Below are positions 6,141-54,125 of a stretch of 64,000 nt of DNA, one piece after another. The DNA is taken from the NCBI GenBank assembly GCA_018830565.1, contig JAHJRX010000045.1, positions 10,626 through 74,625 on the forward strand, given 5' to 3'. The DNA is from a bacterium. GTDB taxonomy: Bacteria; UBA9089; JAHJRX01. A program made the translations under genes and the position numbers. The notes under the pieces were generated by a model. That model ran no database searches. It saw nothing but the letters and a program-made list of their open reading frames with translations, and was not told where the DNA came from. Positions within the stretch are counted from its first letter, which is position 1, and each line of letters opens with the position of its first letter.

Positions 6141-7937
6141 TTAAGTAATCTTATCTTTCAATATCGATAACATTTTCTTTAATCGATGAAGATAGGTATG
6201 TTCTTCCAAGACCTTTTTATGAAAAGCTTCAGCAATCTTCCTTCTTTCTTCTGGGTGGTAAAGAAAATAAATTATCTTTTCTCTTAACTCATTATTATTT
6301 TTATAAAAGATAACTTCTGTATCTTTGGAGAATAAATTAACTAAGTCTTCTCGATAATCGCTTAACATAAACCCACCACAACCACCTATATCAAATACTC
6401 GCATATTAATAGCTGTCCGAAGTTGAGAAACCGTAATATTTAAGTTTATCTCAGAGGCATTGTATAGTCTTGGTAATTCACTTCTATTGTGGATATAGCC
6501 ACCATACTTTACACCTTCTTGTTTAACTTCTAACCATCCTTTATCTCCATAAACTTTTACTCCGAGGTCAGCAATAGCTCTGATTGTATTTTTACGGTAT
6601 TTTCGCATGCTTATGCAATCAATAATTTCTAAATGATTAGAAACTCTTTCTTTTAAATATTCCTTATACTCAAGAGAAATATCCTTAATTACTCCTTCTT
6701 GCTCTTGAATATCTATTAATAGATCTAAGATAGATAGAGTAGGGTCTTGGCTTAATGTCTTTATTAACTTATCTACTACTTTTTTTGAAAACATTTCGTT
6801 AAAAAGGGCTCTGTGTTTTTTGTACATTTTAGTAGCATAAGGGTCAGCCAGCATTCCGGCAAAACTTATTCCACCTGCATATCTTTCTTTGTCTTCTTTA
6901 CTTAATTCCATCCTTTTAAAAATCTTTGGGTTAGTGGCCAAAGGAAGGTAGTAAACATGCTCATATCCCATATCGTTAAGTTCTTTAATATATGTTTTAT
7001 CCCACATAAATATAAAGAAAAGTGGATCTGGCTTAAAGATAGTAGAGATCGAAACAGGAGCATCTGCAAACCAGGAAACATAAGGGATTTTAAATCTTTT
7101 TATTACTTCTAAGATAAACTTTAAACCAACACAAGTAACGGTAAAAATAAAATTAGGCTTTATTTCCTCTATGGCTTTTTCTGCAATTAAAGCGATGTTT
7201 TTCTCATTTAAGAGATTTTTTTCTCTATCGAGGACAAACTTGTTTAAATCAATCACATATACTTCTTGATCTAATTCTGATAAAGCAGCTAAAGAATCTT
7301 CTAAAATATATCTTGTTCCACTTAAACGAAAGTCCATAAAAGAGATGATCTTTAATCTTTTTTTAAGAGTCGTTATTTGGTGGTAAGCTGATTCTAAAAT
7401 CATCTTTTCTAATTTGAGGTAATAATCAGGAAAGGCTCTTTGGCAACCTTCGGTAGAAATTACTTTCGTATTTCCTATGCTTCCTATCAAGTTAAAAGAT
7501 TCTTCAATTTCAAGGCCGGCCAAAAGTCTTACTTTTGTCGAAGTAAGAAGATCTTTGTAATCGAAGAGATAAAGGGAATGGTAGAATAATTCTACCTCTT
7601 TCTCGATGACCACTATTTCTTGAAAAGGCTTGACTCTTTTCATTAATTCAAAGAGTACATAGCCAAAACCTAACCCTAATAAGATAATCTTTTGACAAGT
7701 TTCAAATTCTATCCTGGAGAATGTTTTTTCTGCTTCCCGAGATGGATTAATAGGACTATGTATCCAGATAAGTGCTTCTTTTTCATCAGGGTATTGACCA
7801 GTAATTTGAAGATTCTTGGCTGGTTTTATAATAGCCAGGGGAGTAGCTTTATTAAGCTTTTCTATCTTTTGGAATAAAACCGGTTCCTTTTCTTTAAGGA
7901 GAATGAGGTTTTTTTCTAAGTATTGAGAAGCTTCCAT
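6141..7937 (-). CDS. glycosyltransferase: Maf-like N-terminal Rossmann-type region plus CgeB/DUF3880-type (GT1-like) C-terminal domain
   Basis: N-terminal IILLGLGFGY resembles the Maf N-terminal motif; C-terminal VFDIGGCGGFMLSDYREDL...EEHTY matches the CgeB-family GT domain; bracketed by repeat copies A and B. Confidence 0.5.
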   Translation of the reverse strand: MEASQYLEKNLILLKEKEPVLFQKIEKLNKATPLAIIKPAKNLQITGQYPDEKEALIWIHSPINPSREAEKTFSRIEFETCQKIILLGLGFGYVLFELMKRVKPFQEIVVIEKEVELFYHSLYLFDYKDLLTSTKVRLLAGLEIEESFNLIGSIGNTKVISTEGCQRAFPDYYLKLEKMILESAYHQITTLKKRLKIISFMDFRLSGTRYILEDSLAALSELDQEVYVIDLNKFVLDREKNLLNEKNIALIAEKAIEEIKPNFIFTVTCVGLKFILEVIKRFKIPYVSWFADAPVSISTIFKPDPLFFIFMWDKTYIKELNDMGYEHVYYLPLATNPKIFKRMELSKEDKERYAGGISFAGMLADPYATKMYKKHRALFNEMFSKKVVDKLIKTLSQDPTLSILDLLIDIQEQEGVIKDISLEYKEYLKERVSNHLEIIDCISMRKYRKNTIRAIADLGVKVYGDKGWLEVKQEGVKYGGYIHNRSELPRLYNASEINLNITVSQLRTAINMRVFDIGGCGGFMLSDYREDLVNLFSKDTEVIFYKNNNELREKIIYFLYHPEERRKIAEAFHKKVLEEHTYLHRLKKMLSILKDKIT

Positions 7938-29178: not shown

Positions 29179-29536
29179 TGCCTTAGTAGGAAAATTTCAT
29201 TTGAATGCCACCAAAATTAAGCAATTTTTCTTTCCTGTAAAATCAAAAAGTTATTGCCTTCAGAAAAAAGTTCATTCTTCTGGGCTTCTTTTGTCTAAAA
29301 CTCCCCGTATTCATCCCAATCATTGCTTTTTGCTACTGAACGTAACTTCAGAATTAATTCAGCCCCACTAATTCCCCAGCAGGCCATTGATATTCCCATT
29401 CTATTCTTAACAATATGCCTACATGTTGACTTAACAACACCAGAACCTATCGGATGACCTCGGACTAAATATAGCCCTTATACCAAATTGCAATCAAATG
29501 TATAATAACAATTCGGTATAAATATGAAAAAACGGT

Positions 29537-29607
29537 TAAATCCGAATATCGAAATCCGAAATACGAAACAAATCCGAATACCAAAATTCAAAATCCAAAA
29601 CAATAAG
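29537..29607. repeat. degenerate tandem (AAATCCGAA-TA-CG)n array, about 14-bp period, 5 units
   Basis: Direct inspection; about 200 bp upstream of pseB. Confidence 0.6.
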
Positions 29608-29803
29608 ATATTTGAGATATTTAGTAGCTTGCAACATTTTATTTCTGATTGCAACTTGGTATGACAACATTCTGCAAATCTTTTCATGACAGTTTTTTTC
29701 ATAATTTCATCATTAGAATTGCTGACAAATAATATTATTGACATCAGGAAATATTTAATTTATACAAAAAGAGGAAATAAACTTTAAAAAAGTAGGTACA
29801 AAT

Positions 29804-30787
29804 ATGATCTTGAAAAATAAGACTCTATTAATTACAGGAGGAACAGGTTCTTTTGGAAGAAAATTTACAGAAATAGTTCTAAAAGAATATCATCCTAAGA
29901 AACTTATTATATTTAGCCGAGATGAATTAAAACAGTTTGAGATGAGCCAGATCTTCAGTGAAAAGGAATATAAAAATATCAGATATTTCATTGGTGATGT
30001 AAGAGATAAAGAAAGATTATATCGGGCCTTGGCAGGGGTTGATATTGTAATTCATACAGCGGCATTAAAACAAGTTCCAGCGGGAGAATACAATCCCTTC
30101 GAAGCAGTTAAAACAAACATTTTAGGTGCAGAAAATATTATCAATGTAGCCATAGATCAAGGAGTAGGAAAGGTGCTTGCTCTAAGTACTGACAAAGCTG
30201 TGAACCCAATTAATCTTTATGGAGCTACTAAACTATGTTCTGATAAACTCTTTATTGCCGGCAACTCTTATATAGGCCAAAAGGATATCAATTTTAGTGT
30301 GGTTAGATATGGAAATGTAGTCGGTAGCCGGGGAAGTGTTATTCCTCTTTTTCAAAAACTTTCTTCCACCGGCAAACTTCCCATTACTGATAAAAGAATG
30401 ACTCGTTTTTGGATTACCTTAGACCAAGGAGTAAGATTTGTCTTGAAATGTTTAGCTAAAATGATAGGTGGAGAGATATTTGTTCCAAAGCTGCCGAGCA
30501 TGAATATTATGGACTTAGCTAAAGTAATTGCCCCAAAATGCAAATATGAATTTGTAGGAATTAGACCTGGAGAAAAGATCCATGAAGTCTTAATTTCAAA
30601 AGATGAAGCTCTGCACACCTTAGAATATGAGGATTGTTTTATTATTTACTCAGCCTTTCCTTGGCGAACAATACAAAAACATAGAATAGCTGGTGGTAAG
30701 CCTCTACCACCAGGGTTTTCCTATAGGAGTGATAAAAATAACTGGTGTTTAACCCCAGAAGAACTAAGAAAGATATTAGGTGAGTAA
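29804..30787 (+). CDS. pseB: UDP-N-acetylglucosamine 4,6-dehydratase (inverting), PseB/FlaA1 type
   Basis: LLITGGTGSFG, IIFSRDELKQFEMSQIF, RYFIGDVRDKERL and YGATKL...D align closely with Campylobacter/Helicobacter PseB. Confidence 0.85.
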   Translation: MILKNKTLLITGGTGSFGRKFTEIVLKEYHPKKLIIFSRDELKQFEMSQIFSEKEYKNIRYFIGDVRDKERLYRALAGVDIVIHTAALKQVPAGEYNPFEAVKTNILGAENIINVAIDQGVGKVLALSTDKAVNPINLYGATKLCSDKLFIAGNSYIGQKDINFSVVRYGNVVGSRGSVIPLFQKLSSTGKLPITDKRMTRFWITLDQGVRFVLKCLAKMIGGEIFVPKLPSMNIMDLAKVIAPKCKYEFVGIRPGEKIHEVLISKDEALHTLEYEDCFIIYSAFPWRTIQKHRIAGGKPLPPGFSYRSDKNNWCLTPEELRKILGE

Positions 30788-30793
30788 TTAGAA

Positions 30794-31648
30794 ATGAAGA
30801 TTGGGGCTATTATTCAAGCAAGAACTTCTTCAAGCAGGCTACCAAGAAAAGTTTTAAAAGAATTGCCGTATGGAAGTGGAATAACCGTTTTACAGCAGGT
30901 TATTAGGAGACTTAATAAATCAAAAAAAGTAAATGAAATTATTGTGGCTACCACCACCGACCCAGAAGACAAAAAAATTGTAAAAATAGCCGAATCTGAA
31001 AATGTAAAATGGTTTAGAGGCAGTAAAGAAGATGTTTTAGGTAGATATTACTCAGCAGCAAATGAAAATAATTTAGATCTTGTTATAAGAGTAACAAGTG
31101 ATTGCCCATGTATCGACTCTGAATTAGTTGATTTAGCGATAAAAGAACATTTAAAGACTGAATCGGATTATACATCAAATGACTCAAGAACCTTCCCTCG
31201 TGGCTTAGGTACCGAGGTGATAAACTTCAAGACTTTAGAAAAGGCTTTTAAAGATACCCAACATGACTATGAAAGAGAACATGTTACCCCATATATTTAC
31301 AAAACAAGACCTGACTTGTTCAAAATAACTTTAGTCAAAACGCCAGAAAAACTAAATTGTCCCGAGATTAGAATTACTCTTGATACGGAAGAAGATTATG
31401 TCTTGCTCTGTATAATTTTTGATTACCTTTATTATGAAAATATGTTTTTCAAAGCCAGGGATATAATCCAAATTTTCCAGAGGAAACCTTGGTTAGAACT
31501 CATCAATAAAAAAATTGCGCAAAAGAAAATATATGATACCTTGAATGAAGAAATGAAAGAGGTCATAAGAATATGTGAACTGCAAGATTTAAAAAGAGCC
31601 AAGGAGTTTCTGGAATCTCAAAATATTGCAAAATTCACGAAAGTCTAG
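30794..31648 (+). CDS. pseF: nonulosonic-acid cytidylyltransferase (PseF/NeuA family)
   Basis: N-terminal IGAIIQARTSSSRLPRKVLKEL CMP-sugar synthetase motif; position in the pse cluster. Confidence 0.7.
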   Translation: MKIGAIIQARTSSSRLPRKVLKELPYGSGITVLQQVIRRLNKSKKVNEIIVATTTDPEDKKIVKIAESENVKWFRGSKEDVLGRYYSAANENNLDLVIRVTSDCPCIDSELVDLAIKEHLKTESDYTSNDSRTFPRGLGTEVINFKTLEKAFKDTQHDYEREHVTPYIYKTRPDLFKITLVKTPEKLNCPEIRITLDTEEDYVLLCIIFDYLYYENMFFKARDIIQIFQRKPWLELINKKIAQKKIYDTLNEEMKEVIRICELQDLKRAKEFLESQNIAKFTKV

Positions 31649-31659
31649 CTAGAATAAAG

Positions 31660-32697
31660 ATGAATAAAATAATCTTTCGAACTGATGGAGGGGGGAATGT
31701 TGGGTTAGGACATCTTAGTCGGTGCCTAAGCCTAGCTGAAAGCTTAAAGGAAAAAGGTATCAAGTGTGTATTTGCCACCAAGGATATTGATTCAAAGATA
31801 GGAGGAATGATTGTTAGTAATGGTCACTTAATAGAAAAATTACCCTCAGAAATAAGCTTAGAAGAAGATTTAAACTTAACTATTAATTTGATTAAAAACA
31901 TCCGCCCTGATTTGGTAATTACTGATTCTTATGAGATTGATCAGTCTTATCTTGAACAATTAAAAAAATTAAATATTATTTTGATGAGTATCGATGATTT
32001 GGCAAAGTTGCATTTCTGTTCTGATATAGTGCTTAATCAAAACATTGGTGCCCAAAATAGTGATTATTCGATAGAAAAATATACCAAGCTATTGTTAGGA
32101 CCAGAATATGCCCTTTTAAGGAAGAAGGCTAGGGATAAACAGGGACTTAAGGAGATAAAAGAAATAGCTAAGAATATCTTGATCACCCTTGGTGGAACCG
32201 ATCCAGATAATCAAACCCTAAAAATAGTTAAGGCACTTAAGGATATCAAGAATAATATTGTGGTTACTGTGATTATGGGGCCTCATTATCAATACGAAGA
32301 ACTTCTTAGAAAAGAGATTGGAGTAAGTAACCAATTTTTCCTTGTGAGTGACCCTCAAGATATCTTTGACTTAATGGAAAAGGCAGATATGGCCGTCAGT
32401 GCCGGTGGGAGTACCTGCTATGAATTGGCCTATCTTGGGGTACCGAATATCATTATGGTCATGGCAGATAACCAGAAAAAGATTGCCGAGGAATTAGATA
32501 GCTACGGCACCTCTATAAACTTGAATTGGTTTGAAGATGTTACTGAAGAATATATCAAAAAGGCAGGAGAAAATTTGATTAAAGATAGAAATAAACGAGA
32601 AAAGATGAGCACGAAAGGCAGAGAGTTAGTTGATGGAAGAGGCGTAGAGAGGGTAGTAGAGGAGATTACAAAGCAAATCAATAGAGTTAGTTATTAA
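31660..32697 (+). CDS. pseG: UDP-2,4-diacetamido-2,4,6-trideoxy-beta-L-altropyranose hydrolase (PseG, GT28/MurG-like fold)
   Basis: N-terminal FRTDGGGNVGLGHLSRCLSLAESL matches the PseG signature. Confidence 0.75.
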   Translation: MNKIIFRTDGGGNVGLGHLSRCLSLAESLKEKGIKCVFATKDIDSKIGGMIVSNGHLIEKLPSEISLEEDLNLTINLIKNIRPDLVITDSYEIDQSYLEQLKKLNIILMSIDDLAKLHFCSDIVLNQNIGAQNSDYSIEKYTKLLLGPEYALLRKKARDKQGLKEIKEIAKNILITLGGTDPDNQTLKIVKALKDIKNNIVVTVIMGPHYQYEELLRKEIGVSNQFFLVSDPQDIFDLMEKADMAVSAGGSTCYELAYLGVPNIIMVMADNQKKIAEELDSYGTSINLNWFEDVTEEYIKKAGENLIKDRNKREKMSTKGRELVDGRGVERVVEEITKQINRVSY

Positions 32698-32703
32698 CGA
32701 AAA

Positions 32704-32798
32704 CCGGACATAGGAAATAATACCGAATAACAAAAGATAAACTTGTTTGGAGTTAAATTAATTTGCTCTAGGTCAAATTTTCATTAATAAGTGCTATA
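32704..32798 (+). repeat. intergenic repeat element, copy C (between pseG and pseI)
   Basis: About 90% identical to copies A and B; hairpin stem retained, loop base changed. Confidence 0.8.
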
Positions 32799-32819
32799 GA
32801 GAGTCAATAGAGAAGAGCG

Positions 32820-33872
32820 ATGAAGAAGGTAAAGATAGGTAATAAATTGGTTGGCGAAGGAGAACCCTGCTTTATCATTGCCGAGGCAGGAAGTAATCAC
32901 AATCGGGATTTCAAGCAGGCATTAAAGCTGATTGATATTGCGGCTGAGGCAGGAGCAAGTGCTGTTAAGTTTCAAACTTATTCTGCTGAAAAAATTTACT
33001 CTAAAAAAACCCCAAAGATGAGCTACTTAAAGAAAGAGAGATTAGCTAAAGAAGAAGAGTCTGTCTGGGATTTGATCAAACGAATTGAGATACCAAGAGA
33101 GTGGCATAAGGACTTGGCTGACTATTGCGCTGAAAAGGGAGTTATTTTCCTATCGACACCTTTCGATCTTCAGGCTGTAGACGAACTTGAAGAAGTAGGA
33201 ATGTTGGCTCATAAGATTGCCTCTTTTGAGATCACTCATCTGCCTCTCTTGGAGCATGTGGCCAAAACTAGCAAGCCGATTATTCTTTCAACTGGTATGG
33301 CTGACCTTTCAGATATTGAAACAGCTTTAGAAGTTATTTATAAACAAGGTAATGAAAATGTTATTTTACTCCATTGCGCCATAAGCTATCCTCCTAAGTA
33401 TGAAGATTTGAACTTACGGGCAATGGAGACAATGAGGCAGGCATTTCAACTGCCAGTGGGATTTTCTGACCATACCTTAGGAATTGTATCTGATATTGCG
33501 GCTGTAGCATTAGGTGCCTGTGCGATAGAGAAACATTTTACCTTAGATAGAAAACTACCAGGACCTGATCATTTCTTTGCCCTGGAGCCAGATGAACTAA
33601 AGGTAATGGTTCAGGCCATAAGAGATACTGAAAAGGCATTGGGTTCTCCAATCAAAAGGTGCACTCAAGCAGAAAAGGAGCTGTATCGTTTAGGGAGAAG
33701 GAGTTTAGTGGCAGCCTGTAATATTCCTAAGAAAACAGTGATTACCCGAGAAATGATCGAGGTCAAGAGACCAGGTTATGGTATTCCTACAAAGATGCTT
33801 AATTTAGTTATTGGCAGATCAGCTAGAGTTGACATCGAAGAAGATGATATCCTGTTCTGGGAGATGATATAA
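32820..33872 (+). CDS. pseI: pseudaminic acid synthase (NeuB family)
   Basis: FIIAEAGSNHNRDF...AVKFQTY NeuB/PseI core; C-terminal SAF domain. Confidence 0.8.
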   Translation: MKKVKIGNKLVGEGEPCFIIAEAGSNHNRDFKQALKLIDIAAEAGASAVKFQTYSAEKIYSKKTPKMSYLKKERLAKEEESVWDLIKRIEIPREWHKDLADYCAEKGVIFLSTPFDLQAVDELEEVGMLAHKIASFEITHLPLLEHVAKTSKPIILSTGMADLSDIETALEVIYKQGNENVILLHCAISYPPKYEDLNLRAMETMRQAFQLPVGFSDHTLGIVSDIAAVALGACAIEKHFTLDRKLPGPDHFFALEPDELKVMVQAIRDTEKALGSPIKRCTQAEKELYRLGRRSLVAACNIPKKTVITREMIEVKRPGYGIPTKMLNLVIGRSARVDIEEDDILFWEMI

Positions 33873-33873
33873 A

Positions 33874-34215
33874 GTGGATTTAATTCTGAGAGAGGCAAAA
33901 TTAGAAGACTGTGATGACCTCTACCACTGGAAAAATGATCCGGTGAGCAGGGAACAATCCTTTAATAGGGAAGAAGTTTCGTATGAAGAACACTGTGGTT
34001 GGCTTAAGGAAGCCCTAAAGGATTCCAATAGGCTATTTTATATTGGGATTGATGATAAAAATGAGAAATGCGGAGTGGCCCGGTTTGATATTAAAGATGA
34101 GTTTTTTGCTGAAGTTCATATAAATATTGCTCCAGAAAAGAGGAGAAAAGGGATTGGCAGTCAATTAATTTCAAAATCTTGTCCTTTTAACCCCAGACGG
34201 AGGAAGGCAAGATGA
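33874..34215 (+). CDS. pseH: PseH-like GNAT N-acetyltransferase, unusually short (113 aa; C-terminal part of the GNAT fold missing)
   Basis: WKNDP...EEH...RLFYIGI...RRKGIGSQLI follows the PseH pattern but the ORF stops about 40 aa early; its stop overlaps the next start (ATGA). Confidence 0.5.
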   Translation: MDLILREAKLEDCDDLYHWKNDPVSREQSFNREEVSYEEHCGWLKEALKDSNRLFYIGIDDKNEKCGVARFDIKDEFFAEVHINIAPEKRRKGIGSQLISKSCPFNPRRRKAR

Positions 34216-34970
34216 AAATCCTCTATCTGGGCAACAATCGAATAGGGCTGAATGTTCTAAAGTGGCTGAAGACAAGGGAGGAAAATATAGTTGGACTGGT
34301 AATTCATCCTCCAGAAAAGGCAAAGTTTGCCAAAGAGATGCAAAAGATTTCAGGACTGATGAAAGAAATGATATTTCTAGGAAATGGGATTAGTCAATCT
34401 GACTGTCTTAATAAGATTAAGAGTTTAAGCCCGGATATAGGCATAAGTGTTAATTTTGGGTATACAATAAAGAAAGAGTTTCTGGATATCTTTCCTCAGG
34501 GTTGCATAAACCTTCATACATCCTATTTGCCTTACAACCGAGGAGCTCATCCTAATATCTGGAGTATAATTGAAGAAACTCCAGCCGGTGTGACTTTGCA
34601 TTATATTGATGAAGGAATAGATACCGGTGACATAATTGCCCAAAAGGAGATTAAGGTTGAATTTAATGATACTGGCGAGACTCTTTACCATAAATTGGAA
34701 GATGCCTCTTTAAAACTGTTTCAGGGAACATGGGAGGATATAAAGAATAGCACTAATAGAAGAATAAAGCCGGTTGGTAAGGGAACCTATCATCGGACAA
34801 AGGATATAGAAAAAATTGATTGTATAGATTTGAACAGTAGCTACAAAGCTAAAGACTTATTAAATATCTTGAGGGCAAGAACCTTTTCGCCCTATAAAGG
34901 TGCTTATTGCGAAGCTGAAGGGAAGAAGATCTATTTGCAATTAGAATTGGGGAAGGAAAAGGAAGAATAA
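34212..34970 (+). CDS. Fmt-like formyltransferase (sugar N-formyltransferase candidate)
   Basis: Formyl_trans_N motif HTSYLPYNRGAHPNIW...TGVTLHYIDEGIDTGDIIAQ. Confidence 0.7.
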   Translation: MKILYLGNNRIGLNVLKWLKTREENIVGLVIHPPEKAKFAKEMQKISGLMKEMIFLGNGISQSDCLNKIKSLSPDIGISVNFGYTIKKEFLDIFPQGCINLHTSYLPYNRGAHPNIWSIIEETPAGVTLHYIDEGIDTGDIIAQKEIKVEFNDTGETLYHKLEDASLKLFQGTWEDIKNSTNRRIKPVGKGTYHRTKDIEKIDCIDLNSSYKAKDLLNILRARTFSPYKGAYCEAEGKKIYLQLELGKEKEE

Positions 34971-35177
34971 TGGAAAAGGAAGTTGAATTTGGGAGAAACA
35001 TTCAAGGCTCTTGATTCTTAACAAACGTTCAGGTATCAGTTTTCAGATAGCAGTTTTATTAGGGATAAGTCCGTTAAGGCAAGAGAAAGGAGTGCTTGGC
35101 ACACCACTGCCTGATTTGTTAGCCTTAGCTGACGGCTACGTTTATGATTTTTAAGATACATATTCAAATTATTTACC

Positions 35178-36935
35178 TTGAGAGTTAGGTCATTGTTATT
35201 TCAAAAAAATGTACAAATATTAAAAAAAATTGAACCTTATTTAGTGGCAAAACTAAAAAAAGTAAAACCAAATAAAGAAGGGCCACTTCCCTATCTTAGC
35301 CAAAAACTTGATTTAGTCATAGATGATGATCTTAAATTTCATGATGTCATTGTCATCTTAGGATTTGGCTTAGGTGACCATATTAGAAAAGTAATTAGCT
35401 CCAGTTCTAAATCAAGCTTAATATTAATTATAGACCATGATCTTAGTACCTTTAAAGCTTTATTAGAAAGCATTGATCTATCGGATATTTTTTCTCACCA
35501 ACAAGTTAGCCTTAGTTTTGATGAAGACTTATTATTAGCTACCCGAGGTAGAATAGAACAATACTTTGGCGAGGTGATGTTAGCCGAAACTTTTAAGATT
35601 ATTAAAAATCCCATTTCTATGAATCTTGCTCCTGACTTTTATGAAAAAGTCTTAAATCAACTTAATGAAATTCAATATATTGCTTACTTAAACTTAGGAT
35701 CAATTTTACGCTCCAACTACATTTCAGAAATAAATACAATTAAGAATCTTCCAGCAATTGTATGCCACCCTGGAGTTGGCGAACTTAGCAATAAATTCAG
35801 GAATGTTCCAGCCATTATCGTTTCTTCTGGCCCCTCCTTAAGTAAAAACGTTTCTTTTATAAGACATGCTAAAAATAAAGCTATAATAATATGCGTAGAC
35901 ACAGCTTTAAAAGTATTACAGAGACACCAGATTGAACCAGATTTTGTAACAAGCATAGAGTTTAATCTTAAAAATTACTTATGTTTCAAAAAAATAAAAC
36001 TAAGAAATACTTACTTAATAGCCAGTGAAGAAGTTGCCCCCAAGACTATAAACAAATTTAAAGAAAAAGTTTTCTTTATCCATTCTTCTAATCCTATAAC
36101 TAAATGGTTTTCAAAGGTAATTAATCTTAAAGAAAGTATATCTTTAGGGGGTAACGTAGGAGCAACATCTTTTAGTTTGGCTATTAATTTAGGGGCTAAT
36201 CCTATTATCTTTGTTGGCCAAGATTTATCTTATTCTCAGGGAAAATATTATGCTGATGAGATAGGTAGTTCTTTTATTGAAGCAAAAAAAGATGATGCCA
36301 AGAAAAGAAAGACTGTCTGGTTAGAAAGTATCTACGGAGAAAAGGTAGCCAGCGATAGCGGTATGTTGGTTTATTTAAGATGGTTTGAAAGAGAGATTGC
36401 CTGTCATCAAGATCGAATATTTATTAATGCTACTGAAGGTGGAGCCAAGGTAAAAGGAACTGAACCTATGGTTCTTCAAGCTGTAATTGATGCTTATTGC
36501 CAAAATAATTTAAATATAACCGACATCATTAATGAAACCTTTAAAAAACCTAATCAAGATATAGAAAAAGTTATTTTGTCTATCAAGACTTTGGTAGAAG
36601 AGTATCAAACTATTTTAATTTATAGCTCTCAAGGAAAAGAGCTCATAAAAAGACACAAGTCTAATAAAAGTAAAGATAAAAGTAAAGATATTAGTAGAAA
36701 TCACCAAGTGCATCTTAGCTTATCAATGATAGTTAAGGATATCATCTCTCTGCCTAATTTTATGGAAGCTAATAAATTATCAATAGAATCTCTTCTTCAT
36801 AGGTTAAAAAAAGGTAGGAAGAGTGAAGTATTAAATAACTATTTATTATTCTTTAAAGAAATAACTAAATTCTCGCGTCAGTTGTTGATCTCTTTTGAAA
36901 AAATATTACCCAAATTAGAATCTTTAATAAATTAA
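35178..36935 (+). CDS. motility-accessory-factor (Maf, DUF115/MptE-like) glycosyltransferase family protein, paralog 1
   Basis: DVIVILGFGLGDHI Rossmann-like motif, VSSGPSL, FVGQDLSY; N-terminus aligns with paralog 2; the start codon is non-ATG (TTG at 35178 or 35193), so the 5' end is uncertain. Confidence 0.65.
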   Translation: MRVRSLLFQKNVQILKKIEPYLVAKLKKVKPNKEGPLPYLSQKLDLVIDDDLKFHDVIVILGFGLGDHIRKVISSSSKSSLILIIDHDLSTFKALLESIDLSDIFSHQQVSLSFDEDLLLATRGRIEQYFGEVMLAETFKIIKNPISMNLAPDFYEKVLNQLNEIQYIAYLNLGSILRSNYISEINTIKNLPAIVCHPGVGELSNKFRNVPAIIVSSGPSLSKNVSFIRHAKNKAIIICVDTALKVLQRHQIEPDFVTSIEFNLKNYLCFKKIKLRNTYLIASEEVAPKTINKFKEKVFFIHSSNPITKWFSKVINLKESISLGGNVGATSFSLAINLGANPIIFVGQDLSYSQGKYYADEIGSSFIEAKKDDAKKRKTVWLESIYGEKVASDSGMLVYLRWFEREIACHQDRIFINATEGGAKVKGTEPMVLQAVIDAYCQNNLNITDIINETFKKPNQDIEKVILSIKTLVEEYQTILIYSSQGKELIKRHKSNKSKDKSKDISRNHQVHLSLSMIVKDIISLPNFMEANKLSIESLLHRLKKGRKSEVLNNYLLFFKEITKFSRQLLISFEKILPKLESLIN

Positions 36936-37039
36936 ACCACCTTCGACAGCAGCTTTAGTCATTTCTCACTTTGCTCGAAATGACAATTTTAAAAGCACTT
37001 TCAAATTCATAGACAATAAATTAAAAGGTAACATCTTTT

Positions 37040-38821
37040 ATGGATAGACCTATTATCGATAAACCTAATAATTATGCTAAAAATCTTAACCTTTTAAGAG
37101 AAAAAAGATTTGATCTTTTAGAAAAGTTAAAAGATGTCCAACCAAACTATGAATTGGCTCTTTCTTTAGCTTGCGAAGGATCTATTACTTTTGATAAGGA
37201 TCTTTCTCATAGTAATATTGTAGTTGTTTTTGGATTTGGAACAGGAGATCATATTAAAGCTTTATTAAGTCAAGTTCCTAAAAAAACCTTTATCATTATT
37301 GCTGATCCTGATTTAAGTATCTTTAAGGCAGCTCTTTATCTCAAGGATCTTTCTTCTATTTTAGCAGACGAGCGCCTTATATTATCTATTGGAGAAGCTC
37401 CAGAAGTAATTAAGCAAAAAATTAGAGAGCATTTGATAATATTTACTGTCGTAGATCTTGAAACAATTGAAAATGAAAATTTTACAAAGTATAACTTAGA
37501 CTACTTTAAAAAAGTTAAAGAAATATTAAAAGAGATTAGCACTGAAGCTTATGTTAATATTGCTACTTTAGCTCATTTTACCAAGATTTGGCCTCGTAAT
37601 TTTTTAAAAAATATTGTTCATTTTCTTAAAAATCCAGGCATTAATACCCTTTTTAATAAATTTTCTCAAGTTCCAGCGGTCATTGTTTCTACCGGACCTT
37701 CTTTAAATAAAAATGTCAAATTATTAAAAGAAGCCAAAAAGTATTTTATCCTCATTTCTGTCGACACCGCTTTACCTATCTTAATGAAGAACAAGATTGA
37801 ACCACACTTTGTCTATAGCCTTGAGGCAAATCCTAAAAATATTGACTGTTTTAAGGGTTGGTTATTTAAAAATCTTTGTCTTTTACCAAGTTCTTTTACT
37901 TATCCTCCCACCATTAATAATTTCAAAGGACCTATCTTTATAGAGAACGGAGGTTATCCTTTTGCTCAATGGATAGAACACTTTATTGATCCTAAGGGAT
38001 TTTTAAGTAGGCTAGGTTCTGTGGCCACCAATTGTTTTAGTTTGGCTCAAGCTATGGGGTGTAATCCCATTATCTTTACCGGTCAAGATCTTTCTTTTCC
38101 AGATAATGTCTTTTACGCCAAAGGCGCGCCAGAGAGGTTAGCAAAAGAATCAGATCAGCATATTACTAAGACAGAGATTACTTTTGTGGAAGATAATTTT
38201 GGACAGATGATAAAAACAAGTATCAATATGAAGCAATGGAAATTATGGTTTGAAGAAGAAATTAAAGAAACTCCTGATCTTACTTATATTAATGCTACTG
38301 AAGGTGGGGCTAAAATCGAAGGGACAAAATTCTTAAGATTAAGAGAGGTAATAGATCAATATGGCCAAAAGAAGATTAATATCTTTAAGGTGATTAATAA
38401 GATTCAAAAAAACCATAAAGTTCCTTCCCTTAAGAAATTAATTGAGGAGTTTAAAAATATCATTGAAGAATACCAAATCGCTTCTCAATTAAGCATCCAA
38501 GGTAAGAGCATTTGTGAAAATTTTATCAATCAAATTAAAGATAATGAAGGTAATGTCTCTCCAAAAATAACTCAACTATTAAATAGAGCTAAACTTCTTT
38601 ATCAAGAAATAGCTTCTTTAAATAGGTTTATGTTTTTTTCAAATTGGGATCTTCAACGAATGATGTTTGAAATAGAAAAAGACTTTAAAGAAAAGTCACT
38701 TAAAGTTACTGCTCTATCTTATCAGTATTTTTTCCAAGAAATAGATAATATTACTCACTTGATGCTTAGATACTTATACCCAGCAGAAAAAAAGATTAAG
38801 AAGCTTAAACCTGTTAGCTAA
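37040..38821 (+). CDS. Maf (DUF115) glycosyltransferase family protein, paralog 2
   Basis: NIVVVFGFGTGDHI, VSTGPSL, FTGQDLSF; about 30% identical to paralog 1 along its full length. Confidence 0.7.
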   Translation: MDRPIIDKPNNYAKNLNLLREKRFDLLEKLKDVQPNYELALSLACEGSITFDKDLSHSNIVVVFGFGTGDHIKALLSQVPKKTFIIIADPDLSIFKAALYLKDLSSILADERLILSIGEAPEVIKQKIREHLIIFTVVDLETIENENFTKYNLDYFKKVKEILKEISTEAYVNIATLAHFTKIWPRNFLKNIVHFLKNPGINTLFNKFSQVPAVIVSTGPSLNKNVKLLKEAKKYFILISVDTALPILMKNKIEPHFVYSLEANPKNIDCFKGWLFKNLCLLPSSFTYPPTINNFKGPIFIENGGYPFAQWIEHFIDPKGFLSRLGSVATNCFSLAQAMGCNPIIFTGQDLSFPDNVFYAKGAPERLAKESDQHITKTEITFVEDNFGQMIKTSINMKQWKLWFEEEIKETPDLTYINATEGGAKIEGTKFLRLREVIDQYGQKKINIFKVINKIQKNHKVPSLKKLIEEFKNIIEEYQIASQLSIQGKSICENFINQIKDNEGNVSPKITQLLNRAKLLYQEIASLNRFMFFSNWDLQRMMFEIEKDFKEKSLKVTALSYQYFFQEIDNITHLMLRYLYPAEKKIKKLKPVS

Positions 38822-38869: not shown

Positions 38870-39988
38870 ATGACTTCCATCCAACACTGGCTCGCGAGAT
38901 ATCGGATAGGAAATTATAGAGAAAAAATGCAAATGGACCAACTAAATAAACTTTCTAAAGGAGAATTATTAACCCTTCTTTCTAAAAAAAAGATTAGTTA
39001 TTACCAATTAAGCTCTTCGGAAAGAGAATCTATTCTGGTAGTACCGGCCTTTGGGGGTCGCCTTTTGGGAGCCTTTTTTGATTCTCAAAACCTTCTCTGG
39101 GTAAATAAGGTCTCTTTCGAGGGCTGGAATAAAGGAGGACACCGTACTTGGTATGCCCCAGAATGGACACAAAAGAGCATCTACATCTTAAATGGCTTAG
39201 AATCTTGGCAAGTGCCTTCTCAAATGGACCCTGGAAACTATCAGGTTACTGAATATTGGCCAGATAGATTAATAGCTATGAAGAATGACTTTAATGTAGA
39301 GACCTATGACCATACTCATTACCATCTCTCTTTTACCCGTAAAATTACTCTTGAGACCCAAGAAGAATACGAAGACTCTTTTCTTATTTTAAAAAACATC
39401 CCCAATTTAAGATATATTTCTCTCTTATTTGAACATTGCCTGACCAATAAAACAATGGTCACCATCTTTGAAAAAATTGGTCTCTGGAGTATTCTGGCGG
39501 TTATTCCACCAGGAGATGTAATTGTTCCCTTAGCAGAGACAACAGGTCAAATCTATTATGATTACTATGAACCTCTATCTATGGAAAGAATGAAGATAAG
39601 CAAGGATTGTCTTTCTGTATTTGTTGATGGTGAGAAAAGATACAAAGTAGGCTTTCCCCCAGACAAGACGAGGGGCAAGATAGGATATGTACCAAGGATA
39701 GAAGAGAAATATTCTTATCTTATCTTAAAATCCTTTCCAAATCTTATTAACGGTAAGTACGTAGATAAACCAAAAGATGACCTACGTTCAAGTGGTGATG
39801 TAATTCAGGTTTATAATCACTTTGAAGGGAAAGAGCTTGCTTTTGCCGAACTCGAAAGCCACGCTCCGGCAAAAGTTCTTCTCCCTGGAGAAGAACAATG
39901 CTCTTCAATTAAGCTGCTCTTTTTATTTGGTCCAAAACAGAGCCTAGATCAAGCGGTGGCTAAATTATTTGGTGAAGTTATAATCTAA
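38870..39988 (+). CDS. hypothetical protein (372 aa), no recognisable family
   Basis: Long ORF with a higher local GC than its neighbours; immediately downstream of the Maf genes. Confidence 0.4.
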   Translation: MTSIQHWLARYRIGNYREKMQMDQLNKLSKGELLTLLSKKKISYYQLSSSERESILVVPAFGGRLLGAFFDSQNLLWVNKVSFEGWNKGGHRTWYAPEWTQKSIYILNGLESWQVPSQMDPGNYQVTEYWPDRLIAMKNDFNVETYDHTHYHLSFTRKITLETQEEYEDSFLILKNIPNLRYISLLFEHCLTNKTMVTIFEKIGLWSILAVIPPGDVIVPLAETTGQIYYDYYEPLSMERMKISKDCLSVFVDGEKRYKVGFPPDKTRGKIGYVPRIEEKYSYLILKSFPNLINGKYVDKPKDDLRSSGDVIQVYNHFEGKELAFAELESHAPAKVLLPGEEQCSSIKLLFLFGPKQSLDQAVAKLFGEVII

Positions 39989-39999: not shown

Positions 40000-40320
40000 G
40001 TGAAGGATAAAAAAATAGTTTATGATTACTCTATTTGTTCTGGGTGTTTAGCTTGTATGGTTAATTGTTCCCAGTTTCAAGAAAGCCATGCTTCTTTAGT
40101 TAGTGCCCGAATAAAGATAGAGCTTGAACCTTTCAGGGGGCAATATTTAGCTTATTTTTGTCAGCAATGCCATATTACCCACTTAGAGGAAATAGAGGTT
40201 CAATATCTGGCCGTTTCAAGAAGAAGAGGACAACAACTTAAAGACCCAAATCTAATTGACAGATGGGTCCAGGATGGCTCTAAGGATTATATATCTTCAT
40301 TAACCGATTGGGCAGGATAA
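40000..40320 (+). CDS. small ferredoxin-like protein with one complete 4Fe-4S motif (CSGCLACMVNC) and a degenerate second motif (CQQCH)
   Basis: CxxCxxCxxxC motif; ORF is 12 nt downstream of the previous gene. Confidence 0.4.
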   Translation: MKDKKIVYDYSICSGCLACMVNCSQFQESHASLVSARIKIELEPFRGQYLAYFCQQCHITHLEEIEVQYLAVSRRRGQQLKDPNLIDRWVQDGSKDYISSLTDWAG

Positions 40321-40532
40321 TTTTAAAATCATTAAAATTTTGGCATAAATATTGCTAAAGATTTTTTAAGATTAACCGATATATAAGGTAGAACGATAAG
40401 TTAAAAGAAAAGTAATGATGAATCCTCCCTAAAATCATTACTTGAAAAAACATATCGATCGGAAATTAAAGTTCTCATTTAAGGCGGTTTTTTTAAAGTA
40501 ATTCTCATATCAAACAATTTCTCATATCAAAA

Positions 40533-40579
40533 GCTAAGTAAGTAGAGCTACCTATTTACTTAGCTATTTTTTTGGTTCT
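40533..40579 (+). terminator. rho-independent terminator closing the pse/maf transcription unit
   Basis: About 12-bp imperfect stem GCTAAGTAAGTAG/CTATTTACTTAGC followed by TATTTTTTT. Confidence 0.5.
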
Positions 40580-44975: not shown

Positions 44976-45338
44976 ATGACTATGAGCCATAATCTTCAAA
45001 GACATTTAAGAGTAGCAGAACTTATCAAAGAAGAGATTAGCACTTTAATTGTTACTAAAAAGATAAAGGATCCTCGAATTGGCTTTGCTACAGTCACCAA
45101 GGTAAAACTTTCTAAAGACTTAAAAAATTGCGATGTCTTTATAAGTATTTATGGAAATGAAGAAGAGATAAAAAGGACTTTAGAAGGACTATCTCAAGCT
45201 AAGGGATTTATTAAGGGTCAAATAGCTAAAAATCTTAACCTCAGATGTATTCCTTTCATCAACTTTAAACATGATTTATCTATAGAATACAGTGATCATA
45301 TTCTAAAGATTATCGAGGGGCTGAATATTCCTAAATGA
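44976..45338 (+). CDS. rbfA: ribosome-binding factor A
   Basis: KH-like RbfA fold motif; conserved position after infB. Confidence 0.8.
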   Translation: MTMSHNLQRHLRVAELIKEEISTLIVTKKIKDPRIGFATVTKVKLSKDLKNCDVFISIYGNEEEIKRTLEGLSQAKGFIKGQIAKNLNLRCIPFINFKHDLSIEYSDHILKIIEGLNIPK

Positions 45339-47822: not shown

Positions 47823-47835
47823 GAAAGGATTTTAC

Positions 47836-54114: not shown

Positions 54115-54125
54115 AGAAAAGTTTT

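What the first reader, a model, noticed from the sequence alone, without database searches (positions are those of the whole stretch)
29804..38821. Pseudaminic-acid-type nonulosonate glycosylation island with an Fmt-like formyltransferase and two Maf transferases
pseB, pseF, pseG, pseI, a short pseH and a formyltransferase are directly followed by two Maf (DUF115) paralogs, and a third Maf/CgeB-like glycosyltransferase lies at 6141-7937. In Campylobacter and Helicobacter, Maf proteins transfer Pse/Leg derivatives onto flagellin. Here no flagellar gene is in view, pseC (the aminotransferase) is absent from the cluster, and a formyltransferase is coupled to a truncated PseH. This suggests an N-formylated Pse-type sugar (as in Pse5Ac7Fo-containing O-antigens) transferred to a protein target in a lineage where this has not been described. 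The giant Ig-rich secreted protein at 15148-19533 is a candidate substrate. The island sits between thiC and the rimP operon and ends with a terminator, consistent with horizontal acquisition.
Basis: partly seen in the sequence, partly recalled or inferred. Interest (0 to 1): 0.75.

Follow-up and report, generated by a model that had tools for sequence, protein, structure and literature searches.

The report
Flagellin sugar-coating gene cluster, formyl variant
This is an ordinary flagellin glycosylation gene cluster (a pseudaminic-acid-type sugar pathway with a known kind of formyltransferase and two Maf transferases) in an uncultured groundwater bacterium; the "missing" flagellin and aminotransferase genes lie just past the window's right-hand edge on the same contig.

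Summary
The genes are real. HMMs confirm PseB, PseG, a NeuB-family synthase, a cytidylyltransferase, a truncated GNAT, a sugar N-formyltransferase and two Maf (PF01973) paralogs at 29804-38821.

It rested on no flagellin, no pseC and therefore a non-flagellar target. The window is a slice of an ~89 kb contig. About 2.5 kb past its end lie a 249-aa flagellin gene, then a PseC-like and a second DegT aminotransferase. This layout is the same in six assemblies.

- **Maf relatives:** the nearest ones outside this lineage sit inside flagellar operons. Of 43 Maf loci with full flanks, 35 have a flagellin within 10 kb.
- **Formyltransferase:** its best solved relative is PseJ, the enzyme credited with the Pse5Ac7Fo pathway.
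- **"Short pseH":** it is a 149-bp deletion allele that varies between strains.
- **"Third Maf":** it is a CgeB-like glycosyltransferase carrying only the Maf N-terminal domain.
- **Terminator:** there is none after the second Maf gene.
- **Island status:** pseB-maf1-maf2 is conserved in a sister species, so the cluster as a whole is not a recent island.

Verdict: a new member of a known kind, of low interest. The lineage has no phylum name. Whether it has a full flagellar apparatus could not be checked.

The parts
29804..30787 (+). pseB: UDP-GlcNAc inverting 4,6-dehydratase, first step of the pathway
   Evidence: TIGR03589 PseB 500.4 bits (cut-off 407.75); Polysacc_synt_2 332 bits. Ortholog 66% identical in sister species L015.
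30794..31648 (+). CMP-nonulosonate synthetase candidate (SpsF-like CTP_transf_3 cytidylyltransferase, not the TIGR03584 PseF type)
   Evidence: PF02348 98.8 bits. TIGR03584 only 21 bits (cut-off 205.7). Best PDB match 6OEW cytidylyltransferase, 134 bits. An ORF whose best match among the cluster's proteins is this one lies in 17 of 80 Maf loci; in the loci listed it sits with PseB/PseC/PseG/NeuB homologs.
31660..32697 (+). pseG: UDP-sugar hydrolase
   Evidence: TIGR03590 PseG 248.6 bits (cut-off 153.55).
32820..33872 (+). Nonulosonate synthase (NeuB family, SpsE-like subgroup) acting as the PseI-equivalent
   Evidence: PF03102 333 bits + SAF. NeuB_NnaB 409.5 (cut-off 399.65), PseI 339.9 (cut-off 340.25). 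PDB: SpsE 1VLI 252 bits > PseI 8H2C 206 > NeuB ~175-180. In an NJ tree it groups with synthases from PseB/PseC/PseG contexts. L076 has a second NeuB next to NeuC.
33874..34215 (+). Truncated PseH-like GNAT (113 aa). Deletion allele, probably inactive
   Evidence: GNAT Pfam hits; PseH TIGR03585 30 bits (cut-off 93.1). Strains L002/L003 carry 149 bp more here, encoding the rest of the GNAT fold. The protein ends just after the acetyl-CoA motif RRKGIGSQL, and its stop overlaps the fmt start (ATGA).
34177..34187 (+). Remaining copy of the 11-bp direct repeat TCTTGTCCTTT at the 149-bp deletion junction
   Evidence: Alignment of window, L002, L003, L004 and L006. BLAST break-points fall at 34177/34187.
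34212..34970 (+). PseJ-like sugar N-formyltransferase, predicted to formylate the 4-amino group of UDP-4-amino-4,6-dideoxy-L-AltNAc (N7 of the final sugar)
   Evidence: Formyl_trans_N 90 bits + N_formyltrans_C 57 bits. Best PDB match is formyltransferase PseJ 6CI2/6CI4, 117 bits, 45% identity over 139 aa. Motif residues N100, H102 and D137/D140 are present. Homologs occur in PseG-Fmt-NeuB-Maf-flagellin loci L038 and L095.
35178..36935 (+). maf1: Maf-family nonulosonate transferase (start codon TTG at 35178 or 35193)
   Evidence: PF01973 150 bits. 36% identical to Maf2 from residue 8 onward. 59% identical to the first Maf of sister species L015. Carries all columns invariant in the 26-sequence Maf alignment.
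37040..38821 (+). maf2: second Maf-family nonulosonate transferase
   Evidence: PF01973 138.8 bits, Maf_flag10_N 27.6 bits. The Maf profile hits the solved Magnetospirillum Maf 5MU5 at E = 5e-21. Nearest homologs outside the lineage lie in flagellar operons.
38870..39988 (+). DUF6786 protein (likely start 38933), probably co-transcribed with maf2. Mutarotase-like fold. Membership of the system not shown
   Evidence: PF20583 106.7 bits. AF2 model pLDDT 95. Foldseek best hits are putative aldose 1-epimerase 3NRE (E = 5e-11) and hexose-6-P mutarotase 2CIR. None of 80 other Maf loci has a homolog.
6141..7937 (-). CgeB-like GT-B glycosyltransferase with a Maf N-terminal domain. Candidate accessory flagellin glycosyltransferase, not a Maf
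   Evidence: Glyco_trans_1_2 118 bits, Maf_flag10_N 41.5, DUF3880 41.2, no PF01973. Similar to Maf2 only over residues 84-197. Full-length homologs lie directly downstream of maf in L023, L024, L025 and L031, and inside the flagellin glycosylation loci L032 and L057.

Best explanation
The cluster is the sugar-supply and transferase part of a flagellin O-glycosylation system, split over one chromosomal region.

**Proposed pathway**
1. PseB converts UDP-GlcNAc to UDP-4-keto-6-deoxy-L-AltNAc.
2. A PseC-like aminotransferase, encoded ~29.5 kb downstream next to the flagellin gene, aminates C4.
3. In this strain the PseH-like acetyltransferase is truncated by a 149-bp deletion. The PseJ-like formyltransferase therefore N-formylates that amine with N10-formyl-tetrahydrofolate.
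4. PseG removes UDP.
5. The SpsE-like NeuB-family synthase condenses the hexose with PEP to give a Pse5Ac7Fo-type nonulosonic acid.
6. The SpsF-like cytidylyltransferase makes the CMP-sugar.
7. The two Maf paralogs transfer it in the cytoplasm to Ser/Thr residues in the short D1 loop of the 249-aa flagellin, before export. The two probably differ in acceptor site or donor preference.

**Shown:** gene identities by HMM; the co-linearity of the cluster, flagellin and pseC on one contig; the deletion allele; the flagellar context of the homologs.

**Inferred:** the stereochemistry and N7-formyl identity of the sugar; flagellin as the acceptor; the division of labour between the Mafs.
For: - **Gene identities:**
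- **Same contig:** L008/L100 come from the same ENA contig as L001. L008 matches window 52496-64000 at 99.97-99.98% identity.
- **Flagellin and aminotransferases:** on L008 a Flagellin_N + Flagellin_C gene lies 2.5 kb past the window end. A DegT gene follows whose best model is PseC (404 bits), then a second DegT. The arrangement is the same in six assemblies.
- **Flagellin conservation:** 78-82% identity in sister species, close to PNPase at 72-74%.
- **Maf family membership:** the Maf profile matches the solved Maf 5MU5 at E = 5e-21.
- **Context of relatives:** the closest Maf outside the lineage (36% identity) sits between fliO and other fli genes in a Nitrospirota MAG. The Thermincola homolog sits between flagellin/fliD and fliS. 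Of 43 Maf loci with full flanks, 35 have a flagellin within 10 kb. Loci L038 and L095 show PseG-Fmt-NeuB-Maf-flagellin.
- **Formyltransferase:** best solved relative is PseJ. A paper credits PseJ with completing the Pse5Ac7Fo pathway (PMC11040635).
- **Published precedent:** Maf enzymes glycosylate D0/D1-only flagellins in the D1 loop (PMC11339370). Paralogous Mafs with different serine specificity are documented in Shewanella (bioRxiv 10.1101/2023.12.03.569772).
Against: - The flagellin gene is ~27.7 kb from maf2 and is not in a flagellar operon.
- No basal-body, hook or export gene is visible in the ~85 kb of the ~89 kb contig that could be read. The only hints are sub-threshold FlgT_N (28.4 bits, cut-off 28.8) and LPP20/FlgP-like (21 bits) hits.
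- No sigma-28-type promoter was found upstream of the flagellin gene or pseB.
- The synthase scores better on the NeuB/LegI-type model than on PseI. Its closest solved relative, SpsE, belongs to a B. subtilis pathway reported to make legionaminic acid (PMC7439481). The sugar's stereochemistry is therefore not settled.
- PseC and PseI both fall just under their curated cut-offs.
Confidence: 0.8

Rival explanations
1. The Mafs glycosylate a non-flagellar surface or secreted protein, or cap a general O-glycan. The flagellin on the contig would be incidental.
For: - The cluster lies between thiC and rimP, not in a flagellar locus, 27.7 kb from an orphan flagellin gene.
- No flagellar machinery genes appear in the ~85 kb of the contig that was read.
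- A third, CgeB-like GT with a Maf N-domain is present.
Against: - No Maf acceptor other than flagellin turned up in the papers read here; one lists non-flagellin substrates only as future work (PMC11339370; bioRxiv 10.1101/2023.12.03.569772).
- Homologs are overwhelmingly next to flagellins or inside fli operons.
- The one pathway gene missing from the cluster, pseC, sits 1.1 kb from the flagellin gene.
- Nothing ties the GH39/Big_5 protein to the system.
Confidence: 0.07
2. Same system and same target, but the sugar is not pseudaminic acid. It would be a legionaminic-type or other 5,7-diamino nonulosonate, made by an sps-like route.
For: - The synthase passes NeuB_NnaB and not PseI.
- Its closest solved relative is B. 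subtilis SpsE.
- The cytidylyltransferase is of the kind named SpsF in B. subtilis, not PseF.
- The B. subtilis sps genes, which include a PseG-like SpsG, are reported to make Leg (PMC7439481).
Against: - PseB (inverting dehydratase) and PseG score far above their equivalog cut-offs, and PseC is the best model for the aminotransferase.
- No NeuC/LegG-type 2-epimerase and no LegB are present.
- The synthase clade co-occurs with PseB/PseC/PseG. In L076 it coexists with a separate NeuC-linked NeuB.
- The formyltransferase's best solved relative is PseJ, an enzyme of the Pse pathway.
Confidence: 0.12
3. The system is decaying or switched off in this strain. The GNAT is truncated, neighbouring genes are deleted, and motility may be being lost.
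For: - A 149-bp deletion truncates the GNAT.
- A 5.45-kb deletion relative to strain L004 leaves a remnant ORF at 40000-40320.
- The long GNAT allele itself carries a G6 tract that shifts it past a TAGTAG stop.
- The CgeB-like gene is absent at this position in strain L012.
Against: - All other pathway genes and both Mafs are intact ORFs. Maf2 has exactly this sequence on 13 contigs, the six shown coming from six different assemblies or samples.
- A formyltransferase can replace PseH functionally, as with PseJ (PMC11040635).
- The flagellin sequence is identical across strains and conserved in sister species.
Confidence: 0.05

Closest known systems
Flagellin glycosylation islands of Geobacillus, Clostridium and Thermincola (Bacillota)
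   Same: - Maf genes (often two or more paralogs) sit next to Pse or Leg biosynthesis genes.
- The flagellins are short, D0/D1 only.
- Homologs of this cluster's non-PseF cytidylyltransferase accompany the Pse genes in several Bacillota loci.
- In Geobacillus, PseH is missing from the islands and formyltransferase genes are present (PMC5109656).
   Different: - Here the cluster is not embedded in the flagellar locus.
- Flagellin and pseC are ~28-30 kb away, with housekeeping operons in between.
- The host is an unnamed, apparently diderm lineage (Lgt, LspA, BamD-like TPR protein).
PseJ formyltransferase (PDB 6CI2, 6CI4, 6CI5, 6EDK)
   Same: - Best solved relative: 45% identity across the catalytic core.
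- The INLH(T/I)SYLP.N.G and IDTG.II motifs are conserved.
- It lies in a Pse cluster, and PseJ is credited with the Pse5Ac7Fo pathway (PMC11040635).
   Different: The window enzyme has ~60 extra N-terminal residues. It also has a C-terminal N_formyltrans_C dimerisation domain like the dTDP-Qui4N formyltransferases (4NV1, VioF, Rv3404c), to which it is ~39% identical. Its activity is untested.
Campylobacter / Helicobacter / Aeromonas / Magnetospirillum Maf transferases (PseD/PseE, Maf1; 5MU5)
   Same: Central PF01973 domain, Maf N-terminal domain and a helical C-terminal region. Profile match to 5MU5 at E = 5e-21. Weak match to the NCBIfam PseD domain model.
   Different: Very divergent. A single-sequence search finds no PDB hit, and the PseD model scores 118-127 bits against a cut-off of 670.
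Shewanella oneidensis Maf-1 / Maf-2 two-paralog system
   Same: Two divergent Maf paralogs flank or adjoin one Pse pathway. In Shewanella they modify different serines (bioRxiv 10.1101/2023.12.03.569772).
   Different: Neither window Maf has the TPR tail of Maf-1 (822 aa) or the short form of Maf-2 (441 aa). The short spacers on either side of maf1 leave little room for an 89-aa GlfM-like gene beside the maf pair.
Bacillus subtilis sps genes (SpsE, SpsF, SpsG)
   Same: The synthase is closest to SpsE (1VLI, 252 bits). The cytidylyltransferase is of the kind named SpsF in B. subtilis, and a PseG-like hydrolase is present (PMC7439481).
   Different: The sps pathway starts with a non-inverting dehydratase (SpsM), makes Leg and decorates spores. 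Here a bona fide PseB, a formyltransferase and Mafs are present.
Caulobacter FlmG (TPR + GT-B flagellin pseudaminyl-transferase), as an analogue for the gene at 6141-7937
   Same: About 600 aa, with an N-terminal protein-recognition module followed by a GT-B-type domain, and association with flagellin glycosylation loci (PMC7591256).
   Different: The N-terminal module is a Maf N-domain, not TPR. No sequence comparison with FlmG could be made, and no function is known.

Membership tests
Maf (motility-associated factor) flagellin nonulosonate glycosyltransferases | Central MAF_flag10/DUF115 (PF01973) domain | tested here: met
   150.0 and 138.8 bits against a cut-off of 34.6 for the two proteins.
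Maf (motility-associated factor) flagellin nonulosonate glycosyltransferases | Homology to a structurally characterised Maf | tested here: met
   A profile of 26 homologs hits Magnetospirillum Maf 5MU5 at E = 5e-21. The single sequence finds nothing.
Maf (motility-associated factor) flagellin nonulosonate glycosyltransferases | Genomic association with nonulosonate biosynthesis and with flagellin | tested here: met
   Biosynthesis genes are adjacent. The flagellin gene is on the same contig, 27.7 kb downstream. That is looser than the within-10-kb linkage seen in 35 of 43 reference loci.
Maf (motility-associated factor) flagellin nonulosonate glycosyltransferases | Transfers a CMP-nonulosonate to flagellin Ser/Thr | not testable with these tools
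   Needs co-expression or mass spectrometry.
Maf (motility-associated factor) flagellin nonulosonate glycosyltransferases: the claimed third member at 6141-7937 | Central PF01973 domain | tested here: not met
   Only Maf_flag10_N (41.5 bits), DUF3880 and Glyco_trans_1_2. BLASTP similarity to Maf2 is limited to residues 84-197.
Pseudaminic acid pathway (PseB-C-H-G-I-F) | PseB equivalog | tested here: met
   TIGR03589, 500.4 bits against 407.75.
Pseudaminic acid pathway (PseB-C-H-G-I-F) | PseC equivalog | tested here: inconclusive
   Absent from the window. On the same contig (L008 15807-16967, minus strand) TIGR03588 is the best model, at 404.2 bits against a cut-off of 423.5.
Pseudaminic acid pathway (PseB-C-H-G-I-F) | PseH equivalog | tested here: not met
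   30.2 bits (window allele) and 37.6 bits (long allele) against a cut-off of 93.1. The window allele is truncated by a 149-bp deletion.
Pseudaminic acid pathway (PseB-C-H-G-I-F) | PseG equivalog | tested here: met
   TIGR03590, 248.6 bits against 153.55.
Pseudaminic acid pathway (PseB-C-H-G-I-F) | PseI equivalog | tested here: inconclusive
   339.9 bits against 340.25, while NeuB_NnaB scores 409.5 against 399.65. In a context-labelled NJ tree it falls with synthases from PseB/PseC/PseG clusters.
Pseudaminic acid pathway (PseB-C-H-G-I-F) | PseF equivalog | tested here: not met
   TIGR03584, 21 bits against 205.7. A different CTP_transf_3 enzyme fills the slot.
PseJ-type sugar N-formyltransferase | Formyl_trans_N core with the Asn-His-Asp catalytic motifs and closest similarity to PseJ | tested here: met
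   PF00551, 90 bits. PseJ is the top PDB hit (117 bits, 45% identity over 139 aa). N100, H102 and D137/D140 are present.
PseJ-type sugar N-formyltransferase | Formylates UDP-4-amino-4,6-dideoxy-L-AltNAc | not testable with these tools
   Needs an enzyme assay.
Horizontally acquired genomic island | Composition differs from the host genome | tested here: inconclusive
   GC3 is 0.33-0.36 for pseG, the synthase, GNAT, fmt and DUF6786, against 0.257 +/- 0.031 for 30 other genes. pseB, the cytidylyltransferase and both mafs are typical at 0.23-0.28.
Horizontally acquired genomic island | Mobility genes, tRNA target or flanking repeats | tested here: not met
   No integrase or transposase among the ORFs and no tRNA at the borders. 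The only feature is a 27-nt inverted repeat pair at 29480-29662 upstream of pseB.
Horizontally acquired genomic island | Absent from close relatives | tested here: not met
   The sister species carries orthologous pseB-maf1-maf2 (66%, 59% and 65% identity), contiguous, next to uvrA. Only the internal block from the cytidylyltransferase gene to fmt is missing between them there.

The most novel reading that the evidence does not exclude
The lineage may lack a conventional flagellar apparatus. None is visible in the ~85 kb of the contig that was read, and the flagellin is an orphan gene among housekeeping genes here and in a 55%-identical relative. In that case the conserved Maf pair and the Maf-N/CgeB-like glycosyltransferase would decorate a minimal flagellin used in some other way, or further non-flagellin proteins, with an N-formyl nonulosonate whose acyl group is switched between strains by the GNAT deletion.
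Probability: 0.07. Interest if true: 0.65.

Novelty: new member of a known kind. Interest (0 to 1): 0.2.

Why it matters
It matters little beyond cataloguing.

- It extends Maf/Pse flagellin glycosylation, including the PseJ-type N-formyl branch, to an unnamed deep-branching groundwater lineage with a minimal 249-aa flagellin.
- It shows strain-level variation within one population: a GNAT deletion, a G-tract frameshift, and presence or absence of neighbouring sugar genes. This could diversify the flagellar surface.
- Two side observations may be worth a specialist's glance. The first is the recurrent pairing of Maf genes with a Maf-N/CgeB-like GT-B protein. The second is a mutarotase-fold DUF6786 gene directly downstream of maf2.
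- The case also shows how a fixed window edge can create an apparent "missing partner".

Tried and rejected
1. An exact look-up of Maf1 from its TTG start found nothing. Maf2 worked.
2. Taxonomy could not be resolved. NCBI names every copy only "bacterium". PNPase relatives drop from 72-74% to ~58% identity, spread over Bacillota, Nitrospirota and candidate phyla.
The rest of the genome could therefore not be screened for flagellar machinery.
4. A sigma-28 consensus search gave one chance-level hit at 40356 and none near the flagellin gene or pseB.
5. Rfam at gathering threshold found only the two tRNAs and no riboswitch near thiC or the cluster.
6. Promoter and terminator scans were at shuffle level. 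The maf2-DUF6786 spacer does not fold.
7. The upstream 8 kb of the contig holds only housekeeping genes.
8. The short spacers on either side of maf1 (207 and 104 nt) leave little room for an 89-aa GlfM-type helper gene beside the maf pair.
9. The GH39/Big_5 giant protein was rejected as a substrate candidate. It is a glycoside hydrolase with a sorting-type C-terminus and has no link to the Mafs.
10. DUF6786 was considered as a conserved Maf partner and rejected, because none of 80 other Maf loci has a homolog.

Full report
**What is in the stated interval**

The ORF map and the Pfam and NCBIfam scans confirm a co-oriented run of genes on the + strand:

| Coordinates | Product | Key scores |
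|---|---|---|
| 29804-30787 | PseB | TIGR03589, 500 bits, cut-off 408 |
| 30794-31648 | CTP_transf_3 cytidylyltransferase | PF02348, 98.8 bits |
| 31660-32697 | PseG | TIGR03590, 249 bits, cut-off 154 |
| 32820-33872 | NeuB-family synthase with SAF domain | PF03102, 333 bits |
| 33874-34215 | 113-aa GNAT | PseH model, 30 bits |
| 34212-34970 | Formyltransferase | Formyl_trans_N + N_formyltrans_C |
| 35178-36935 | Maf1 | PF01973, 150 bits |
| 37040-38821 | Maf2 | PF01973, 139 bits |

The two Mafs are 36% identical to each other over their full length. A profile built from them and 24 homologs matches the solved Magnetospirillum Maf 5MU5 at E = 5e-21.

Three labels in the finding need correction:
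- The cytidylyltransferase is not the PseF equivalog (21 bits against a cut-off of 206). Its best solved relative is 6OEW.
- The synthase passes the NeuB_NnaB model and misses PseI by 0.35 bits. It is closest to B. subtilis SpsE among solved structures.
- The "third Maf" at 6141-7937 has no PF01973 domain. It is a CgeB-like GT-B protein that shares only the Maf N-terminal domain.

There is also no terminator at the end of maf2. A DUF6786 gene starts 48 nt later, and the spacer folds no better than shuffled sequence. The only terminator-like hairpin with a T-run downstream of the cluster is at 40532-40565.

**The decisive point: the window edge**

Within the window there is indeed no flagellar gene and no DegT aminotransferase. 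The window, however, is a slice of an ~89 kb contig.
- The exact Maf2 protein occurs on 13 contigs. These include an 88,874-bp ENA contig and several NCBI MAG contigs.
- A look-up of the last gene of the window returned the continuation of that ENA contig (L008). L008 matches window 52496-64000 at 99.97-99.98% identity, and L009 matches the last 1.8 kb at 100%.
- About 2.5 kb beyond the window end lies a 249-aa gene with Flagellin_N and Flagellin_C domains, at the position equivalent to ~66478-67227.
- On the opposite strand, 1.1 kb further on, lies a 386-aa DegT aminotransferase whose best NCBIfam model is PseC (404 bits, cut-off 423.5). A second DegT (264 bits on PseC) follows it.
- The arrangement flagellin, DUF116, NifU, DegT, DegT is the same in six assemblies.
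- NCBI already annotates the protein as flagellin on the 89,242-bp contig.

A standard flagellin gene elsewhere in the genome explains the cluster conventionally, and the pathway is not missing its aminotransferase.

**Is flagellin the likely acceptor?**

Context in other genomes says yes.
- The closest Maf outside this lineage (36% identity, a Nitrospirota MAG) lies in a flagellar operon, directly downstream of fliO and preceded by flgE, flbD, fliL, fliM and fliN.
- The Thermincola homolog lies between flagellin/fliD and fliS, together with a Leg pathway.
- In a scan of species-representative genomes, 48 of 80 Maf loci have a flagellin homolog within 10 kb. Among loci with full flanks the figure is 35 of 43.
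- Two loci show the same PseG-formyltransferase-NeuB-Maf order right next to a flagellin: L038 and a Syntrophales MAG, L095.
- The window organism's flagellin is a D0/D1-only type with a short loop (…TTQFNTKQVIPNATTTDLGIDKGS…). It is 78-82% identical in sister species, comparable to PNPase at 72-74%. This argues for a functional gene.
- Maf-dependent glycosylation of such short flagellins in the D1 loop is documented for Clostridium botulinum (PMC11339370).
- Two Maf paralogs with different serine preferences are documented in Shewanella (bioRxiv 10.1101/2023.12.03.569772).

**The sugar**

- PseB and PseG are clear equivalogs, PseC is the best model for the remote aminotransferase, and there is no NeuC/LegG-type epimerase or LegB.
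- The formyltransferase's best solved relative is PseJ (6CI2/6CI4; 117 bits; 45% identity over 139 aa). The INLH.SYLP.N.G and IDTG.II motifs are conserved, giving N100, H102 and D137/D140.
- PseJ is cited as the enzyme that completed the Pse5Ac7Fo pathway (PMC11040635).
- Unlike PseJ, the window enzyme keeps a C-terminal dimerisation domain like the dTDP-Qui4N formyltransferases (39% identity to 4NV1).
- The synthase is not a canonical PseI. In a neighbour-joining tree of Maf-linked NeuB homologs, labelled by gene context, it groups with synthases from PseB/PseC/PseG clusters (L030, L032, L063) and with PseG-NeuB-GNAT-Maf loci (L058, L074, L076). L076 also has a separate NeuB next to NeuC and a PglD-like acetyltransferase.
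- I therefore favour a Pse-type product at about 0.8. The SpsE similarity, and the report that the B. subtilis sps genes make legionaminic acid (PMC7439481), leave the stereochemistry open.

**The "short pseH"**

- Aligning strains shows a clean 149-bp deletion between two copies of TCTTGTCCTTT. The window, L001, L004 and L006 carry the deletion. L002 and L003 carry the long form.
- The truncated product ends just after the acetyl-CoA motif, and its stop overlaps the formyltransferase start.
- The long allele encodes the rest of the GNAT fold, but it runs past a TAGTAG double stop because of a G6 tract. With G5 it would end at 149 aa. Whether that extra G is biological or an assembly artefact is unknown.
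- Even the long form scores only 37.6 bits on PseH.
- The practical inference is that in the window strain the formyltransferase is the only N-acylating enzyme for the 4-amino group. That predicts a 7-N-formyl sugar.
- A formyltransferase taking the place of PseH in Maf/Pse flagellin islands was already noted for Geobacillus (PMC5109656).

**Island or not**

- No integrase, transposase or tRNA flanks the cluster.
- GC3 is raised by 2.5-3.4 sd only for pseG, the synthase, the GNAT, fmt and DUF6786. pseB, the cytidylyltransferase and both mafs are typical.
- A sister species has orthologous pseB (66%), maf1 (59%) and maf2 (65%) lying contiguously next to uvrA, without the intervening block.
- So the pseB-maf1-maf2 core is inherited within the lineage. 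At most the internal block has moved or been acquired.
- The downstream border varies between strains. L004 carries 5.45 kb more (a 4Fe-4S protein, an aldehyde:ferredoxin oxidoreductase and a 1132-aa UDPGP-domain protein). In the window this leaves only a remnant ORF at 40000-40320.

**Side findings**

- Full-length homologs of the Maf-N/CgeB-like protein lie directly downstream of maf in four Nitrospinota/Nitrospirae loci. They also lie inside the flagellin glycosylation loci of a Carboxydocellales MAG and a Thermincola MAG. Its layout recalls FlmG, which is TPR + GT-B and 596 aa (PMC7591256).
- DUF6786 gave a confident model (pLDDT 95) with a galactose-mutarotase-like fold. The best hits are putative aldose 1-epimerase 3NRE (E = 5e-11) and hexose-6-phosphate mutarotase 2CIR. 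No other Maf locus carries a homolog, so its membership of the system is unproven.

**Limits**

- The organism is an unnamed lineage.
- I could not screen the rest of the genome for flagellar machinery.
- In the ~85 kb of the contig that could be read, the only hints are sub-threshold FlgT_N and LPP20/FlgP-like hits near the flagellin gene.
- No sigma-28 promoter links the loci.
- A non-flagellar or additional target therefore remains possible but unlikely, at about 0.07.

**Verdict**

This is an ordinary flagellin glycosylation system of the Pse/Maf kind with the known PseJ-type formyl branch. It is a new member of a known kind. Interest: 0.2.

Noticed in passing
window 6141-7937 (-); loci L023, L024, L025, L031, L032, L057: A 598-aa protein combining a Maf N-terminal domain with a CgeB-like GT-B domain recurs directly downstream of maf genes in Nitrospinota/Nitrospirae MAGs. 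It also lies inside the flagellin glycosylation loci of two Bacillota MAGs. This may be an undescribed accessory class of flagellin glycosyltransferase, analogous in layout to FlmG. The gene is absent at this position in strain L012.
   Followed up: partly
window 38870-39988 (+), likely start 38933: The DUF6786 gene lies 48 nt after maf2. A high-confidence model (pLDDT 95) has a galactose-mutarotase / aldose-1-epimerase-like fold. The family is small (549 representatives at E <= 1e-3), and no other Maf locus examined carries a homolog.
   Followed up: partly
window 40000-40320 and 40172/40173 junction; L004 7589-13043: The 106-aa ORF is a deletion remnant. Strain L004 carries 5.45 kb more here: a 138-aa 4Fe-4S protein, an aldehyde:ferredoxin oxidoreductase and a 1132-aa protein with a UDPGP domain.
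   Followed up: partly
L002/L003 around 6686-6700 (long GNAT allele, absent from the window): A G6 homopolymer immediately precedes a TAGTAG double stop. With one G fewer the GNAT would end at 149 aa. As assembled, it reads on for 73 codons over the formyltransferase start. This could be slippage-type variation or an assembly error.
   Followed up: partly
window 29480-29662: A 27-nt inverted repeat pair (81% complementary) brackets two 32-bp AAATCCGAA-rich tandem repeats in the 626-bp spacer upstream of pseB. The arms occur nowhere else in the window. It could be an operator or a small inserted element.
   Followed up: partly
window 45325-45608, 47658-47827, 56937-57077: Intergenic tandem repeats of 79 bp (3.6 copies, 98% matches), 53 bp (3.1 copies) and 46 bp (3 copies) lie between housekeeping genes. 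BLAST of L002 and L003 against the window breaks and multi-maps at the 79-bp array, which suggests a different copy number; this was not counted.
   Followed up: no
L100 15431-16330 (-) and 19674-20750 (+), beyond the window end: Near the flagellin gene lie a 299-aa protein with a weak LPP20/FlgP-like hit (21 bits) and a 390-aa protein with a borderline FlgT_N hit (28.4 bits, cut-off 28.8), next to an SLH + TPR protein. These may be flagellar outer-ring components. Both are below threshold.
   Followed up: partly
window 59515-62506 (+): Three tandem paralogous response-regulator/GGDEF genes (330, 319 and 311 aa). The first two are ~79% identical at the DNA level over ~500 nt.
   Followed up: no
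window 15148-19533 (-): The 1461-aa protein is a GH39 glycoside hydrolase with five Big_5 domains and a FlgD_ig-like C-terminal domain of the kind used as a sorting tail. A PorV-like beta-barrel gene lies just upstream of the flagellin gene on L008.
   Followed up: no
L098 7192-7929: In a relative with a 55%-identical flagellin, the flagellin gene is again an orphan, between serS and secE-nusG. Dispersed flagellin genes therefore seem typical of this group.
   Followed up: no
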